64,000 bases of DNA. Source: Scyliorhinus canicula (Eukaryota). Location of the stretch: the NCBI RefSeq assembly GCF_902713615.1, contig NC_052163.1, positions 84,741,721 through 84,805,720 on the forward strand, written 5' to 3'. Within the stretch, counting starts at the first letter, position 1; the number at the start of each line of letters is the position of its first letter. The position numbers were made by a program, and so were the translations under genes. The notes under the pieces are model-generated. The model was not told where the DNA came from. It did not search any database and was given only the letters and a program-made list of their open reading frames with translations. Below, one piece after another: positions 6,005 through 57,479 of this stretch.

Positions 6005-7000
6005 TTGCATGCACAATCGATTCCTACGCTTTATGTCATGAGCATCATGACGTCAGAGGCCCCGGCGAGTTTTAAAGCTACAAAATGCAGGTTTTTCACC
6101 TCGAAAGACAGAACAATGCCTGAACTTCTACCAACAGTTGAAAATAACCTCCGCAGCACCCTGGAGCAAGCAGTTTGCACCACCCAAAGTGAAGAGCGCA
6201 ATGTCAAATCCAAAACCAAAGAAGTTGATTTGTTTATCGAGGAATACAACTCAGACATGGCTGAGTTATTCGGATATGATGATCATAAAAGCATCAGCGC
6301 CACGGGTGAAAAGCTCAACACGACTCTACTCATGGTAGATGAATCCAATACCATGATGCAATGGCAGATCATCGATAGATTGGATGACAGCAACCTGTCA
6401 AATACCCAAGAAGAAAACAATGCCACACAGCGAGTACTGAACAACTCCGTTGGGAGAGCACAGATCGACTCCACAGAGAGAACACTGCACAAATCCACAC
6501 AGAGAGCAATGAAAGACTCCACAGAGAGCTCATTGACAGACTCCACAATGGAAGCAACTCAAGAGTCCATAGCAAAGTCCATGCATGGACAAGACCATGG
6601 TCTATCAACCTTATCTGAGCAACTAGCAGCAGACTATGAAAGTCTACCAAGCTCACGTGAACAACAAGAAGACTATGAAAGTCTACCCAGCTTATTTGAG
6701 CCACAAGAAGAAGACTATGAAAGTCTAACCAGCTTATTTGAGCCACCAGAAGAAGACTATGAAAGTCTACCCAGCTCATTTAACCAACAAGAAGACACTG
6801 AATGTCTACCCACTATATGTGAGACAAGTGACGAAGAAATCACAATTCCCAGACAAGATGTGCAAGATCACAGCGAGACTGACAGATCTCAGCTCGTATG
6901 TACAGAAGCACTCAACAATCAAAGTGAAACTACTCTTGAGTCCAGTGAGACCATGTCAATTAAAACCTCATCTACTCTAACCCATCCACAAGAAAATTAA
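6005..7000 (+). CDS. 331-aa acidic repetitive ORF of element B, function unknown; continues disrupted to about 7560 and at 11690-12470
   Basis: Open frame with (Q/E)EDYESLPS repeats; homologous to the element A ORF; expression not shown. Confidence 0.4.
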   Translation: MHAQSIPTLYVMSIMTSEAPASFKATKCRFFTSKDRTMPELLPTVENNLRSTLEQAVCTTQSEERNVKSKTKEVDLFIEEYNSDMAELFGYDDHKSISATGEKLNTTLLMVDESNTMMQWQIIDRLDDSNLSNTQEENNATQRVLNNSVGRAQIDSTERTLHKSTQRAMKDSTESSLTDSTMEATQESIAKSMHGQDHGLSTLSEQLAADYESLPSSREQQEDYESLPSLFEPQEEDYESLTSLFEPPEEDYESLPSSFNQQEDTECLPTICETSDEEITIPRQDVQDHSETDRSQLVCTEALNNQSETTLESSETMSIKTSSTLTHPQEN

Positions 7001-7562
7001 ATCTTTAAGATTTTGACTCCAGAAGAGGGGCATCAAGAAACCAAAGATGATTCAAGTGAACCTGAAATCACGCCAAAAGAGGAGCGCCACGAAATCAAAG
7101 ATGATTCAAGTGAACCTGATATGACTCCAAAAGAGGAGCACCAAGAAATCAATGATGATTAAGTGAACCAGAAATGACTCCAGAAGAGGAGCACCAAGGA
7201 ATAAAAGAGGAATCACATCAACCACAAATGACTGATGTCACCAAGATCAATCCAACATCAGATCATTCACACAATCCTCAAGAAGAAACGCTCAATGAAA
7301 CATCAAATACCACAAAGGATACTGGCACAAATAACTTTGAGAATGACTCAAATTATCCACACGGAACAGTCATTGAGCGCAACAAGAACAATAAAAACCA
7401 CAAGTACAACAGAAACAAGAACAACAACAGCATCAACAAGAAGCACAACAATAACAACAACAAAAACTACAAGCACAACAACAAAAACCACAAGCACAAC
7501 AACAAAAAGTACAAGAACAACAACAAAAACAACAAGAAGCATAACAAAGGCAACAGCAAAAA

Positions 7563-11685: not shown

Positions 11686-12015
11686 AAAGGCAACAACAAA
11701 AACTACAAGCACGACAACGAAAACTACAAGAACAACACCAAAAACAACAAGAACAAGCATAACAAAGGCATCAACAGCAACAACAAGCACGACAAAAACA
11801 ACAAGAACAACAACGGAAACAACAAAGACAAATGGCAAATACAACAACAATGAAACAACAACTTGTACGACATGGCACAACTCTGCACATGAAGGACAAT
11901 GTAACAGCACAACTCAAAACAATGGCAAGAGTACAAACATACCATGGCATGACAATGAATCTCACAAATTCATATTTGCTCCACTACAAACAAGCAAACC
12001 AGCTTTCAAGGCAGT

Positions 12016-12470
12016 TGACATACAGAATCAATACCACAAACACAGAAAAAGTCCAGGTCAGACAACAAAGATGACATACAGAATCAATACCGCAAGCACA
12101 GAAAAATGTCCAGGTCAGACAACATAGATGACACACAGAATCAGTACCGCAAGCACAGAAAAAATGTCCAGGTAAGACAACAAAGATGACATAAAGAATC
12201 AATACCGCAAGCACGGAAAAATGTCCAGGTCAGACAACAAAGATGACATATAGAATCAATACCGCAAACACGGAAAAATGTCCAGGTCAGACAACAAAGA
12301 TGACATATAGAATCAATAACGCAAACATGGAAAAATGTCCAGGTCAGACAACAAAGATGACATATAGAATCAATACCGCAAACACGGACAAATGTCCAGG
12401 TAAGACAACAAAGATGACATATAGAATCAATACCACAAGCACAGAAAAAAAATGTCTAAATCAGACAACA
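12016..12470 (+). repeat. 57-bp (19-codon) tandem array, about 8 copies, in element B
   Basis: Unit TCCAGGTCAGACAACAAAGATGACATATAGAATCAATACCGCAAACACGGAAAAATG encoding CPGQTTKMTYRINTANTEK. Confidence 0.92.
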
Positions 12471-49734: not shown

Positions 49735-51907
49735 AACACCCAGATCAGGCCCCAGATGGGACCCAACACCCCAACTCCCCAGGGAACACCCCCCTCAAAA
49801 TCAACCTCCCCCAAAACCAGGAACTCCACCTCCCACACCAGGCAGACCCCACAACATCAACCCCCCCCAAAACCAGGAAACCCCCCACAAAACCAGGAAC
49901 CCTCCCCTTAAAACCAGACAGGCCCCAAACATCAACCCCCCCCAAACCTGGAACCCCACCTCACAAACCAGGCATACATCCCAACATCAACCCACCCCAT
50001 CAAGGTACCCCACCACCCAAAACTACGCCCCCCAACATCCAGCCCCCGCAAACCAGGCACCCCCACCTCCCAAACCAGGTACCGCCCCCCCACCCACATC
50101 AACCTGAGAAAACCAGGCACGCACCCCCCCCCACATCAACTCCCCAAAGCCAGGCACCGCCCCCCCACATCCACCCCCGAAAAACAGGCCCCCACCCACA
50201 TCAACCCCCCAAAACCAGCCCCCCCCCCAACATCCACCCCCAAAAACCAGGCACCCCCCAACATCCACCCCCAAAAACCAGGCACCCCCCAACATCCACC
50301 CCCAAAAACCAGGCACCCCCCAACATCCACCCCCAAAAACCAGGCACCCCCCCAACATCAACCCCACAAAACTAGGTACCGCCCGCCCAACATCAACCCT
50401 ACAAAACTAGGTACTGCCCCCCCCAACATCCAACCCCGAAAACCAGGCATTGCCCCCCCACACCAACCCCCAAAAACCAAGCACCGCCCCCCCCACTTTA
50501 ACCCCCAAAAACCAGGCACCGCCCCCCCCCCCCCCCACATCCACCCCCGAAAACCAGGCATCACCCCCCCCCAACATCAACTCCACAAAACCAGGCACCG
50601 CCCGCCCAACATAGGACCTGCCAGGCCGGCAACCCGCCCCGAACCCAACATTGAACACGCTCCAAACCAGACTTGCCCCCCCAACATTGACCCCTCCCCA
50701 ATCAGGCTCCCCCACCCTGCCAATCAAGCATCCTCCAATCAAGCACCCCACACTCCCTGATCCAAGCACCTCCCCCATCAACCCCCCCACCAAGCACTAC
50801 CCCCCATTAACCTCCCCGACCAAGCTCTACCCCCCATCAACCCCCCCACCAAGCACTACCCCCCATTAACCTCCCCGACCAAACACTACCCCCATCAACC
50901 CCTCCGACCAAGCACAACCCCCTCATCAACACCCCTGACCAAGCACAACACCCCCGACCAAGCACAACACCCCATCAACACCCCCGACCAAGCACAACCC
51001 CCCCATCAACCCCCTGACCAAGCATCCACCAATCAAGCACCCCACACTCCCCGAACCAAGCCCTACCACCCTCATCAACCCCCCCCCCCACACCAAGCAC
51101 CACTTCCCCATCAACACATCAACATCCCCCCCCACCAAGCACCACTTCCCCATCAACCTTGCCAACCCACCACCATCCCCCCCAAAGAACCCCCCAACAT
51201 TTACTCCCCCCAAACAGACAACTCCCTCAGCATAGACATCCCCCATCCAACTAGGCACCCTCCCCCCACCCCCAAAATCGACCAACCCCCCCCCCCCCCC
51301 CGGGCCATGCACGCCCCAACCATTGACCCCCCCCCCAGACATGCCCCCAATATTGTCCCCCCCCCCAGACCAGGCACAGCCCCAACAGTGACCCCCCCCC
51401 AATGCAAAGCAACACCCCTCACCAACATCAACACGCCGGAGCAGGCACCACCGCTCAAACCAGCATCCTCCTTTGAACTAGGCACCCCCAATAACATGGA
51501 CCCCCTCAGATCAGACACCCCCACCAGACACCGCATCCCCCCCCCTCACAAGACACCACCACCCGCCAACAAAGCACCACAGTTCCCCCCACAAGGCAGC
51601 ACCCCTCCAAAAAGGCAATTTCCCTAAACAGGCCCCACCCCGTGCCATCGACACCCCCCCCCCCCAGTCAGGCTCCTGCCCCCAATCAGGCACCACTCCC
51701 CCCATTATCGAGCTCTCAACGAACCAGGCACCTTCCCCCGCAAATAGGCACACCCCCGTCATCAAGCACCTCCCCAACCAAGCATCCCCCCACACCGCAA
51801 CCAAGTACCCCTCCACAACCAAGCACCCTGACCCCAACCAAGCACCCCCTAACTTGCTCCCACAGTCAACCCCAACAGTAACCCCTAAATCAAGCACCTC
51901 ACCCCCG

Positions 51908-51947
<40 letters not shown>
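49735..51947. repeat. 2.2-kb C/A-rich compound minisatellite
   Basis: About 30-bp CAACATCCACCCCCAAAAACCAGGCACCCCC units, then CCAAGCACYACCCCCCATCAACCCC units, ending in poly(C). Confidence 0.88.
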
Positions 51948-51951
<4 letters not shown>

Positions 51952-53143: not shown

Positions 53144-53549
53144 AAAAGACTCTACCTGGTCAACTCAGCTTTTGATTTGAATCAAGCCCCAGATTGTTCA
53201 ATTTTACCTAGTTTTGGGGCATGATTTAAGAAAAAAGCAGAATCCCGTTTGGGGCAGGTTTAGCAGGGCATTCACCGACACTTGTAGCACCGGGAACAAC
53301 CCAGTAATTGAACCAGACTCTTGCAGGCCTCGGCAGGGCCCACTTTTCTTGATTTCCTGCAGTGAAAAGCTCCACTCTCTCCATTCCCAACATGACCCCC
53401 GAACCCTCCCTACTGCCCCAAAGTACCATTTGGGGGGTCCTTGAGCCCCCCCCCCCCTCCCCCACTCTGCAACCCACCCTCGTAAGGGTAGGTCAGTCCC
53501 GGGCCCAATTCCTGGTGCGGGCAAAATGCCACCTTGGCAATAACAGCCT

Positions 53550-54380
53550 TGATGAGACCATCAATTCACGCGACACATGGTTAGAAGTGAACAGTGGTTT
53601 TAATCGTCTTACGACAGAGCCTGCTTGTGACAAGATGAACTCCAGATGAACTAGCAGGCAGGCTCTCAGCATCAACCTTTATACTTCCGGTTAAGGCTTT
53701 TAAGTCTCTGAGGAATTCTTCTAGCGATTCTGTAGGGCGCTGGCGGCGAGTAGTAAAAACGTGGTGCGCGTAGACCTCATTGATAGGCCTCACGTACATT
53801 CTATCGAGTAGGGCCAGGGCCTCTGTATATGAGCCGGTACAGTTTAGCTGAGTAGATATACGATGACTCACCCTCGCGTGCAGTAGACTGAGTTTCTGCT
53901 CCTCTGTCGTTTCTGGGGTGCTTGCTTCAGCCAGGTAGGCCTTAAAACATCGGAGCCAGTGCGAAAAGATGTCTTTCGCCTCTGCATCCTGCGGGTCGAG
54001 TTCCAGTCGATTAGGCTTGAGGGCTGATTCCATGGTCATTCCTTACTGTTTCTTAAGACGATTAAATTGATGAGACCATCAATTCACGCGACACGTGGTT
54101 AGAAGTGAACAGTGGTTTTAATCGTCTTACAACAGAGCCTGCCTATGACAAGATGAACTCCAGATGAACTGGCAGGCAGGCTCTCAGCATCAACCTTTAT
54201 ACTTCCGGTTAAGGGGAGGAGCCATGGGTGGAGCCAAGGGTGGAGCCCAGTACAAACTCCCGTACACTCCCAGTGCATCTCCCCCTAGTGGCAGAGCAGC
54301 GCAACTGCTCGTGTGCCAAGCTTACCGAGACATAGTACATGTGTAATACAGTGTGAATTACGCTACTGTGATTCACCACA
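53550..54380 (-). mobile_element. Internally deleted Gypsy element (5' LTR 54068-54380, gag start, partial 3' LTR 53550-53696)
   Basis: Perfect 5-bp TSD AGCCT; gag MESALKPNRLELDPQDAEAKDIFSHWLRCF..RRQRPTESLEEFLRDLK; LTR copies differ at 5 of about 147 bp. Confidence 0.92.
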
Positions 54381-54899: not shown

Positions 54900-55100
54900 A
54901 TTTTAAAAAAATACATTTCATTCAGGCATTTTCATAAAAACAAACCAAAGCAGAAGAAAAATCTTACAACATTATAAATAACCAATTTCCACATCCCCTC
55001 CTGCTCCCCACCATTGCCTCCATCTCCCATCCTGCCATCCACATTTTAACCCCCTTGCCCCCCTCACCCCCTTTGCAGACCCCACAATCATCGTTAAAGC
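54900..55100 (-). mobile_element. L1 3' end fragment
   Basis: G-rich UTR and T/A tail like other L1 copies. Confidence 0.5.
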
Positions 55101-56511
55101 TTTTATCTACTTACCACTTAGTAGCATCGATGTCCTGGGTCCTGCATTGCTAAGTAAGTAAAGTAGACTTTAGGAATAAACCACTTTTTCATTTCAGGTT
55201 AAGTTAAGTTATTTTATTATTATATATATATTTTAAAGCTGTAAACACTTTCTTTACAGAAAGGTAAAACAATCTTGCTTCTGGATCCTTTCTGTTGGTT
55301 GAAGGGGCCTTCAGGCCCACCTTGACAATCAATCTTCTTTATAATCTGGTCTCCTTTACACCCCATCTTGACATTTGAAACATAACTATATCATTTGGCT
55401 AATTGTCCCCCCATCCAATTGTACTAACATATATCCCCGATCTTTGTCATTTGTATGCATGTATTTCAATTTTAAATTGTGCACCAAAATCAATTTGTAA
55501 ATGTATCCATATCTCAGACCAGTGTCAATAAGAGTCTTTTTTCTTCCTCATGTCCAATTACCGTGAAACATAGCCATAGCCGCTCAGGAAGGTAACACAA
55601 TCGCTTTCCGTGTGTTCCACTACCTCCAAAGCATTTTACTTCCTTGGGATAGCAGCACCGTAGAAGCTTCCTCATGTCGATCCACAGAATATCCTTACGA
55701 AAGTCAATCACACATGACTTTCCAGACTAAACTCGGCAGGTAAAGTCTGACTCACACATAGACCAGAAACTTCTAATATTCTAGCCTTTGTGCCGGTTAT
55801 AAACTTCTAATATTCCAACCGTTTCTTGGGAACTAGAAACTTCTAATATTCTAGCCCCTACTCTAGCCCCCATTCTGCTCAGCTAGAAACTTCTAATATT
55901 CTAGCCTCACTTTACCTAGAAACTTCTAATATTCTAGGCCTCCACGCTGGATGCCATGGAGAAAGCAAAAAAACCTACTGGGTGTAATTAACACGATGTT
56001 AACACGTTGGGTGCCATGTAGAAAATAAAGCTACCCGCTAGGCGTAATTAACAGAGTTTTAATAAAACATTGGGCGCCATGTTTTGAAAACTCACCACTA
56101 TTCTTAGAATTCCCCCTATACCAAAAAGGGCCAATATTCTAAATGGTGAACAGGGATTCTCACTCCCTGACTCCGATGCAGGCTTCAGTGGGTGCTATTC
56201 AGGTCAAACTATATTTTCAAATTATCCCCCAGTATAACCCATACCTTCACCGAAGATTTTATCTACTTACCACTCAATAGCATTGATGTCCTGGGTCCTG
56301 CATTGCTAAGTAAGTAAAGTAGACTTTAGGAATAAACCACTTTTTCAGGTTAAGTTAAGTTATTTTATTATTATATATATTTTTTAAAGCTGTAAACACT
56401 TTCTTAACAGAAAGGTAAAACAATCTTGCTTCTGGATCCTTCCTGTTGGTTGAAGGGACCTTCAAGCCCACCTTGACAATCAATCTTCTTTAAAATCTGG
56501 TCTTCTTTAGA
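55101..56511 (-). mobile_element. Miniature (TRIM-like) LTR element: 5' LTR 56080-56511, about 720-bp interior, truncated 3' LTR 55101-55360
   Basis: About 255-bp direct repeats at 55101-55360 and 56257-56511; 3' copy starts TGTAAAGG after purine-rich AAGATGGGG; 5' copy ends CA followed by a tRNA-Lys(CUU)-like PBS; TATA-like and AATAAA inside the LTR. Confidence 0.7.
55763..55937. repeat. Five spaced copies of a 22-bp self-complementary motif CTAGAAACTTCTAATATTCTAG
   Basis: Copies at about 55763, 55797, 55833, 55883 and 55916, with unrelated 11-28 nt spacers. Confidence 0.9.
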
Positions 56512-57479
56512 TGTATTCGCTGGTGAACTCGGTTGCTGTGTCCTATCCTTCCCATGTACCGAGCTGTGAGAGCTGGCTCTGCTGGCTGTCCCCTTTCTTC
56601 GGGTTTATATTCTCTTTCGAAGAGTTATTAAGTTTTAACGACTTTATTGTAAATGAGCTTGTTTCACTTTGATTGTTAAAAAGTATCTTTGATGTAACCA
56701 TTTGAATACAACTAATTATTCATTTTGGGCATAACATCACCTCTCAGATCTGATTACAAAATGCTTTGGTTTCAATAGGTGTTACTTCTATTTCTGTGAT
56801 TTCGAATCGTTTAATTTTCCAATTGTCCCCAGCTCATAACTTTGCCTTTGATTTTGACTTTAAATTATGTCTCTCGTAGACAGGTCGTCTCCAAATTTTC
56901 TTTTAATTGACTTGATGTTCGTAGAATTTTACACTTAGAATTGACACCAAATTCGACTGAGCATCATCCATCCTTTCCAGCTGTTTACGAAGAGAGTTTA
57001 TTTCAATTAAGGTGTGAGACTTTGCTTTTAGCTGTATGCTAAAATTTAACTTGGTTATGACTTGAAAGACCTGCCTGTTTTAAACATTCGTCACTTAATT
57101 CAATTGAAACACTCATCTGTGCCTTCCCAGATACTTCCTGAGATAGTTACTTTCAATGAAGGTGTGAGCCATTGTTTTAGCTTACCATCAGGATCCTGTG
57201 TGTTTGATAAGCCTGCTTGTGAGAAAGAATCTGCATTTTATAATCCTGCTCTTTACAGCTGCTATTATCCTTTTGTGGGATCTTTCCCCGTATCCTCTTA
57301 GACCAGATATTGCCAGACTTCCATGTTTCAAATTACACATTTTTCTGTATTTTCAATTACATAAGGAAGACTTTGTGGTGAAACAGTTGAGGAACAGTGG
57401 AGAACCTTCCAAGCGATTTTCACAGTGCTCAGCAAAGGTTTATACCAACAACAAGGAAGGTCGGTAGAAAGAGGGAAAA

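What the first reader, a model, noticed from the sequence alone, without database searches (positions are those of the whole stretch)
55938..56081. Miniature LTR element with three tandem CA+PBS(tRNA-Lys) units
Seen (minus strand): CA|TGGCGCCCAATGT (56079-56067), CA|TGGCACCCAACGTG (56016-56003) and CA|TGGCATCCAGCGTGGAGGC (55956-55938), spaced about 60 bp apart by related T-rich TGTTAATTAC(G/A)CC linkers. Established: TGGCGCCCAACGTGGGGC is the tRNA-Lys(CUU) PBS used by foamy viruses and several other retroviruses. The interior is only about 720 bp, with at most a decayed TLIDTG protease-like remnant. Inference: a TRIM-like retroviral derivative with an amplified U5-PBS module, giving alternative priming sites or multiple tRNA-fragment or KRAB-like targets.
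Basis: partly seen in the sequence, partly recalled or inferred. Interest (0 to 1): 0.7.

Follow-up and report, generated by a model that had tools for sequence, protein, structure and literature searches.

The report
Stacked primer sites in foamy-like retroelement
A family of non-coding derivatives of a foamy-like endogenous retrovirus carries three tRNA-primer-site units in a row behind its first terminal repeat, only the first unit marks the repeat end, and the stack likely arose from slips of reverse transcriptase and likely shrank again in younger copies.

Summary
The triplet is real and a family trait: 42 fetched loci carry it, as does a second organism. It is not a TRIM. The window copy is an internally deleted member of a ~6 kb non-autonomous family (LTR ~1.3-1.4 kb, 4-bp TSD) derived from a foamy-like element with one 1788-aa gag-pol frame and a single PBS. 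The first CA is the LTR end (17 of 17 3' LTRs). Unit 3 is the family's own imperfect PBS; units 1-2 carry the tRNA-type base, so they were likely written from the primer tRNA at a misplaced plus-strand transfer and then duplicated. Younger relatives hold two units or one, some with copies of other tRNAs, so the sampled trend is 3 to 2 to 1. 'TLIDTG' is not a protease remnant. The linker's origin is unresolved and no function is shown. Partial or multiple PBS are known in HIV-1, and this scan noted similar stacks in other genomes. New variant of a known kind; interest 0.4.

The parts
56080..57361 (-). 5' LTR, 1282 bp, TG...CA; its end is the first CA of the stack
   Evidence: homologous LTR starts and ends in other copies with 4-bp TSD
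56067..56079 (-). PBS unit 1: 13-nt tRNA-Lys(CTT) complement, inferred priming site
   Evidence: positions 1-13 match in 25-30 of 30 copies, positions 14-18 in 0 of 30; 3' LTRs end here
56017..56066 (-). linker 1 (50 nt) ending in CA; origin unknown
   Evidence: homologous to linker 2, p=0.001
56003..56016 (-). PBS unit 2: 14 nt, fixed mismatch at position 5, tRNA-type base at position 10
55957..56002 (-). linker 2 (46 nt) ending in CA; its 3' part is kept in the younger two-unit family
   Evidence: doublet linker vs linker 2, p=0.001
55938..55956 (-). PBS unit 3: the family's native 19-nt imperfect PBS (wobble at 10, bulged A) with one or two further changes
   Evidence: same tail as 56 of the first 100 LTR-PBS junctions listed
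55762..55937 (-). leader with five ~25-nt hairpin-forming repeats, shared with the autonomous partner
   Evidence: (D19, D20)
55677..55761 (-). rest of leader up to the internal deletion junction of this copy
   Evidence: alignments of 27 of the 29 other copies stop at 55677; none continues into the window's next bases
55361..55676 (-). 3' non-coding stretch with the TLIDTG-reading bases and the polypurine tract (GGGTG junction)
55097..55360 (-). 3' LTR remnant (start TG, internal deletion, truncated; no TSD testable)
   Evidence: 93.9% to 56509-56253 over 262 nt

Best explanation
This is the leader of a non-autonomous, internally deleted derivative of a foamy-like endogenous retrovirus, in which two extra PBS-plus-linker units stand in front of the family's original PBS; the first extra unit likely arose when plus-strand strong-stop DNA carrying a tRNA copy landed out of register, and a tandem duplication likely made the second. 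Shown: the first CA is the LTR end, unit 3 has the family-native sequence, units 1-2 have the tRNA-type base, and two-unit and one-unit relatives are younger or nested. Inferred: only unit 1 primes; the helper is the single-PBS gag-pol element; the short 13-nt PBS leaves the tRNA copy with an unpaired 3' tail, so most progeny keep the RNA-encoded stack (minus strand wins) while some transfers slip and shorten or replace it. Units 2-3 are most likely passengers.
For: LTR end: 17 of 17 triplet copies with a detectable 3' LTR (of 33 with a 10-kb stretch) end at the first CA, none followed by a PBS, 8 of 17 with a perfect 4-bp TSD; 54 of 54 linker matches in fetched loci are followed by a PBS-like unit, none by flank. 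Signature at PBS position 10: unit 1 tRNA-type A in 41 of 42, unit 2 in 36 of 39, unit 3 native G in 37 of 42; the native form is the commonest single PBS (56 of 100 listed rows, counted by eye) and no tRNA gene matching it was found (2 pattern hits, 0 called as tRNA). Partner: 1788-aa frame with RT, tether, RNase H, integrase, best solved relative foamy virus Pol, E 6e-81. Direction: LTR-LTR divergence medians 5.5% (triplets, n=14), 0.9% (18-nt doublets, n=5), 0-0.2% (single-PBS classes, n=15); doublet leaders nest inside the triplet clade (95/85 and 98/82) while their U5 groups outside it with helper-type U5. Fossils of slipped transfer behind the triplet-type LTR end: exact 18/18 tRNA-Lys(TTT) PBS (L142), 17/18 tRNA-Arg(CCT) PBS (L143), and a single LTR plus 15-nt PBS plus 10 nt of LTR end inside a 4-bp TSD (L164); 3 of 16 doublets carry tRNA-matching bases at 19-22, the second RT stop of PMC8599865 (passages). 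Delayed second transfer with tRNA inserts is described for HIV-1 (PMC12657518, passages).
Against: The linker's source was not found: no significant match to U5, inverted U5-PBS, tRNA read-through, or the rest of the element; one of 8 leader comparisons gave p=0.028, not convincing after that many tries. The founding 1-to-3 event is older than every sampled copy, so it is not observed; one 13-nt doublet (L163) could be a pre-duplication form rather than a deletion. Predicted tRNA duplex energy is stronger for unit 3 (-30.7) than unit 1 (-26.5 kcal/mol), so unit 3 can bind tRNA; products primed there may simply fail to integrate. The stack persisted across subclades spanning 1.6-9.4% LTR divergence and is nearly as conserved as its flanks (p-distance 0.091 vs 0.075 and 0.066, with three times the CpG), which fits a retained role as well as neutrality. 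The AU test (p 4e-60) rejects triplets as one clade against all others, not against doublets alone; trees use 340-460 columns and recombining elements.
Confidence: 0.65

Rival explanations
1. The extra units are kept by selection: units 2-3 act as decoys for 3' tRNA fragments or as landing pads that rescue plus-strand transfer, or the linker tunes access to unit 1.
For: Long persistence and flank-level conservation; unit 3 is predicted to bind the tRNA 3' end more strongly than unit 1; imperfect PBS dominate in the partner as in mouse ETn/MusD, where escape from tRNA fragments was proposed (PMC7472051, passages).
Against: The youngest successful relatives have lost units; units 2-3 have a fixed mismatch at position 5, inside a tRNA-fragment seed; folds of three copies share no common structure; extra targets on the same RNA should add silencing (inference).
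Confidence: 0.15
2. Plain DNA-level tandem triplication of a ~60-bp U5-PBS or PBS-leader segment in one founder provirus, followed by divergence.
For: Regular 60-63 bp period; linker 1 and 2 homologous; each linker ends in CA like an LTR end.
Against: Units 1-2 carry the tRNA-type base while unit 3 carries the native one; the linker does not resemble present U5 or leader.
Confidence: 0.15
3. The three units are alternative priming sites in routine use.
For: All three can pair with tRNA-Lys(CTT) in prediction.
Against: 0 of 17 3' LTRs and 0 of 54 linker matches show an LTR ending at the second or third CA.
Confidence: 0.05

Closest known systems
[quoted passage not shown]
   Same: tRNA-Lys PBS, GGGTG at the PPT/LTR border, no Cys-His finger found in Gag, Pol closest to foamy virus Pol among solved structures.
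   Different: The partner has one fused gag-pol frame and no env seen; the triplet family is non-coding; no stacked PBS in the passages read. If the host is a catshark (my guess, untested), the partner may be the ERV-Spuma.0-Sca of PMC10699275 (passages; the word PBS does not occur in its main text; supplements not read).
HIV-1 MAL-type 23-nt insertion (PMC3185550, passages) and HIV-1 revertants with multiple PBS (PMC1084362, passages)
   Same: Extra whole or partial PBS copies downstream of the U5 end; multiple PBS arise in viruses whose PBS does not fit the primer.
   Different: Here three CA+PBS units with a 46-50 nt linker, fixed in a germline family and shared by two organism labels, with the tRNA-type units upstream of the native PBS.
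Delayed or aberrant second-strand transfer in HIV-1 proviruses (PMC12657518, passages)
   Same: LTR end + tRNA-derived sequence joined to a wrong place on the minus strand.
   Different: There the products are defective dead ends with deletions; here one product was amplified in trans and gained units.
Mouse ETn/MusD pair (PMC7472051, passages)
   Same: Non-autonomous element sharing LTR and primer with a coding partner; commonest PBS imperfect, perfect ones recurring across the tree; switch between Lys primers.
   Different: Single PBS; betaretrovirus-like, not foamy-like.
TRIM elements (definition recalled)
   Same: Non-coding, two LTRs, PBS, PPT, TSD.
   Different: TRIMs are under about 1 kb with short repeats; this family is ~6 kb with 1.3-1.4 kb LTRs.

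Membership tests
TRIM | Total length under ~1 kb with short terminal repeats (recalled) | tested here: not met
   LTR 1282 bp in the window; TSD-bounded copies 5.7-6.3 kb, e.g. L036 407-6753
TRIM | Short interior is the amplified family form | tested here: not met
   Typical interior 3.0-3.8 kb; one other short interior (L034) has other breakpoints
Non-autonomous LTR retroelement | Paired LTRs TG...CA, PBS, PPT, TSD | tested here: met
   TSD not testable at the window copy
Non-autonomous LTR retroelement | No coding capacity, coding partner with shared LTR and leader | tested here: met
   Interiors keep about 2.1-2.5 kb of the partner's 7.3 kb in broken pieces; 0 of 8 short frames hit a retroviral Pfam family; partner
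Non-autonomous LTR retroelement | Mobilised in trans by that partner | not testable with these tools
   Inferred from doublets with helper-type U5 and triplet-type leader
Foamy-like ERV (partner) | Pol closest to foamy viruses; tether + RNase H + integrase order | tested here: met
   E 6e-81 to foamy Pol vs 2e-41 to Ty3 and 2e-28 to MLV-type RT; Pfam; nearest database proteins 32-39% identical, named ones from ray-finned fish
Foamy-like ERV (partner) | tRNA-Lys PBS, GGGTG PPT/LTR border, no Cys-His finger | tested here: met
   features from PMC5210030 passages
Foamy-like ERV (partner) | Phylogenetic placement inside the FLERV clade, not with lokiretroviruses | not tested
   No reference-bearing RT tree was built
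Spumaretrovirinae proper | Pol frame separate from Gag; env and accessory genes (recalled) | tested here: not met
   One fused 1788-aa frame; 1.3 kb behind it has no long frame. Works like a foamy-derived retrotransposon; not filed as a foamy virus

The most novel reading that the evidence does not exclude
The stack is a selected device of a parasite-of-a-retrovirus: a short, poorly silenced PBS primes while the downstream units catch the tRNA copy or tRNA fragments, letting the non-coding family replicate for a long period, and the family as a whole is a dated natural record of how tRNA copying and tRNA modification stops rewrite retroviral PBS regions in a foamy-like element.
Probability: 0.15. 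Interest if true: 0.65.

Novelty: new variant of a known kind. Interest (0 to 1): 0.4.

Why it matters
If the reading holds, PBS stacks are heritable scars of second-strand transfer that can be amplified in trans and later trimmed, and this family shows the steps side by side: native imperfect PBS, tRNA-corrected PBS, copies of other tRNAs, 22-nt read-through, and three-, two- and one-unit forms with LTR dates. It gives a germline data set on how often the tRNA-copied versus RNA-copied PBS strand wins (17 corrected vs 56 native among 100 listed junctions), a question usually studied in HIV or MLV culture. It also warns that annotators can misplace LTR ends at inner CA-PBS units. No new function is shown.

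Tried and rejected
Linker as direct U5 copy (p=0.37, 0.99, 0.81), inverted U5-PBS copy (p=0.31, 0.94, 0.58) or tRNA read-through (p=0.17, 0.52, 0.47): none significant. Linker as leader copy: 1 of 8 comparisons p=0.028. Linker elsewhere in the element: within shuffle range (without shuffles). A tRNA gene matching the native PBS: 2 pattern hits, neither called a tRNA; the pattern was exact, so variants could be missed. Shared RNA fold: three triplet copies folded differently. Pfam on 8 interior frames: no retroviral hit. Excess of odd junctions behind triplet-type LTR ends (3 of 14 vs 3 of 93, Fisher p=0.029) is kept only as a hint: two different searches, counts by eye, ages differ. Expression: no RNA holder listed. 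Rows dropped or corrected: L012 was mis-oriented and fixed; L101, L125, L136 were mislabelled as triplets and corrected; L160 (recombinant triplet) was left out of the AU test; 6 'other' rows, L031, L046 and L156 were left out of the U5 tree; L004, L040, L041, L043, L153, L159, L160 were left out of the distance comparison; L004's upstream is not LTR. Paper searches for stacked PBS in endogenous elements (listings only) showed no such title; subscription papers and supplements were not seen.

Full report
Observation. The three CA+PBS-like units are at the stated places on the minus strand, 63 and 60 bp apart. A pattern fitted to them finds 3 matches against 0.03 expected. The two linkers are homologous (p=0.001). 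A genomic tRNA-Lys(CTT) (48 pattern hits; 6 of 6 fetched called by ARAGORN) supplies the reference: unit 1 matches positions 1-13 in 25-30 of 30 copies and never 14-18; unit 2 has a fixed change at 5 and mostly at 9; unit 3 differs at 5, mostly 6 and 10, and has a bulged base.

What the element is. A search of the own genome gave 40 full-length matches among 40 scored of 1241 candidates; 30 of 30 fetched loci have three units (the query held the triplet, so this is biased). A pattern anchored only on the LTR end plus TGG gave 17 hits: 10 triplets, 1 two-unit, 3 with a replaced PBS, 3 LTR ends running into flank. In all, 42 triplet loci were fetched, some of them segmental duplicates. The LTR starts at window 57361 and is 1282 bp; family interiors are mostly 3.0-3.8 kb with no long frame. 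Of 33 triplet copies with a 10-kb stretch, 17 show a 3' LTR end; all 17 stop at the first CA, none is followed by a PBS, and 8 have a perfect 4-bp TSD (start sites were picked by motif, so a chance TSD is possible). All 54 linker matches in fetched loci, the number of genome hits, are followed by a PBS-like unit. The window copy is a deletion derivative: its interior jumps at 55677 to the 3' end, and its 3' LTR is broken. It is therefore not a TRIM. TLIDTG maps 1.2 kb behind the partner's coding frame, not to its protease motif.

The partner. Elements with the same LTR family and leader but one PBS include copies with a single 1788-aa frame and LTR pairs 99-100% identical. The frame holds RT, tether, RNase H and integrase; the best solved relative is foamy virus Pol (E 6e-81); the named nearest database proteins are from ray-finned fish. 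The PPT/LTR border reads GGGTG and no Cys-His finger was found, as in fish foamy-like ERVs (PMC5210030, passages). No env was seen. The triplet family keeps the leader, the start of gag, a 170-bp piece of the protease region, the end of integrase and the 3' non-coding stretch.

A series of PBS forms. A census of LTR-end+TGG junctions gave 241 hits; of the first 100 listed (counted by eye) 56 have a single 19-nt imperfect PBS with the same tail as unit 3, 17 a single tRNA-type PBS, 4 a hybrid, 13 a two-unit form with an 18-nt PBS, 3 a triplet-type 13-nt start, 7 other. So unit 3 is the family's native PBS, not random decay. At position 10, units 1 and 2 carry the tRNA base (41 of 42, 36 of 39) and unit 3 the native base (37 of 42). 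In retroviruses the plus-strand PBS is copied from the primer tRNA and the minus-strand PBS from the RNA (PMC7472051, passages), so units 1-2 are best read as tRNA copies placed upstream of the native site (inference).

Direction. LTR-LTR divergence: triplets median 5.5% (n=14), 18-nt doublets 0.9% (n=5), single-PBS classes 0-0.2% (n=15); Mann-Whitney p=0.002 for triplets vs doublets. On a leader/gag tree of 81 rows the autonomous and non-autonomous lineages split 100/100 and the doublets nest inside the triplets (95/85, 98/82; three rows mislabelled there were corrected). Triplets as one clade are rejected (AU p 4e-60, against all other rows). Doublet U5 falls outside the triplet U5 clade, with helper-type U5, which points to co-packaging and recombination (inference). 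Other shortened forms: L163, L134, L146 (two units); L142 with an exact tRNA-Lys(TTT) PBS and L143 with 17 of 18 to tRNA-Arg(CCT), each TSD-bounded and joined to downstream sequence; L164, one LTR plus 15-nt PBS plus 10 nt of LTR end inside a TSD (a later deletion could also give this). Three of 16 doublets match the tRNA at 19-22, ending where a second RT stop before U54 is reported (PMC8599865, passages). In public runs, contigs of a second organism label in two studies lie across the stack, and joints there show LTR end + Lys(CTT) or Lys(TTT) PBS joined to the leader.

Mechanism. Shown: LTR end at the first CA, native versus tRNA-type units, younger and nested shorter forms, foreign-tRNA replacements. 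Inferred: a misplaced second-strand transfer (as in HIV-1, PMC12657518, passages) put a short tRNA copy and a ~47-nt linker before the native PBS; a tandem duplication made three; unit 1 primes; most progeny inherit the RNA-encoded stack, some slip. Against: the linker's source was not found; the founding event is not sampled; unit 3 is predicted to bind the tRNA end more strongly than unit 1 (-30.7 vs -26.5 kcal/mol), though with only 4 pairs at the primer's 3' end before a mismatch; the stack is nearly as conserved as its flanks.

Known parallels and novelty. A 23-nt partial PBS duplication is natural in HIV-1 MAL-type isolates (PMC3185550, passages) and multiple PBS appear in HIV-1 revertants (PMC1084362, passages). 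Imperfect common PBS with recurring perfect ones are known for ETn/MusD. Four paper searches (listings only) showed no report of a fixed three-unit stack in an endogenous foamy-like family; subscription papers and supplements were not seen. This scan noted similar stacks in other genomes (AI notes, unchecked). The host was not identified by any search; a cartilaginous fish is my guess. Verdict: real, family-level, a new variant of a known kind, best explained as a reverse-transcription scar; interest 0.4.

Noticed in passing
G000 census, (e.g. L124-L133): The young coding subfamily mostly carries an imperfect 19-nt PBS (56 of 100 listed junctions) rather than the tRNA-exact one (17 of 100), with both forms scattered over the tree; departs from a 50:50 strand outcome.
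   Followed up: partly
L164 419-1719 (oriented on the element strand): One LTR + 15-nt tRNA-type PBS + last 10 nt of the LTR inside a 4-bp TSD; possible integrated product of a slipped strand transfer.
   Followed up: partly
L142, L143: Family members whose stack is replaced by a tRNA-Lys(TTT) or tRNA-Arg(CCT) PBS, showing occasional priming by other tRNAs.
   Followed up: yes
L160: Triplet joined to a helper-type LTR end and leader: the stack moved by recombination onto another deletion derivative.
   Followed up: partly
L035, L040, L041, L044: Triplet copies preceded by the 3' non-coding end and PPT of another copy, i.e. tandem or nested arrangements sharing an LTR.
   Followed up: no
window 55762-55937: Five ~25-nt leader repeats that each fold into a small hairpin; copy number varies widely between family members.
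   Followed up: partly
window 53549-53696 and 54067-54214: A 148-bp direct repeat pair, 97% identical, 518 bp apart, just beyond the element; possibly a separate small LTR element.
   Followed up: no
window 49800-51950: C/A-rich minisatellite arrays of 19-31 bp units with strong strand skew.
   Followed up: no
window 6400-7560 and 11690-12470: Codon-periodic repeats (6, 21, 42, 54, 57 bp; CAA-rich) that look like low-complexity coding stretches.
   Followed up: no
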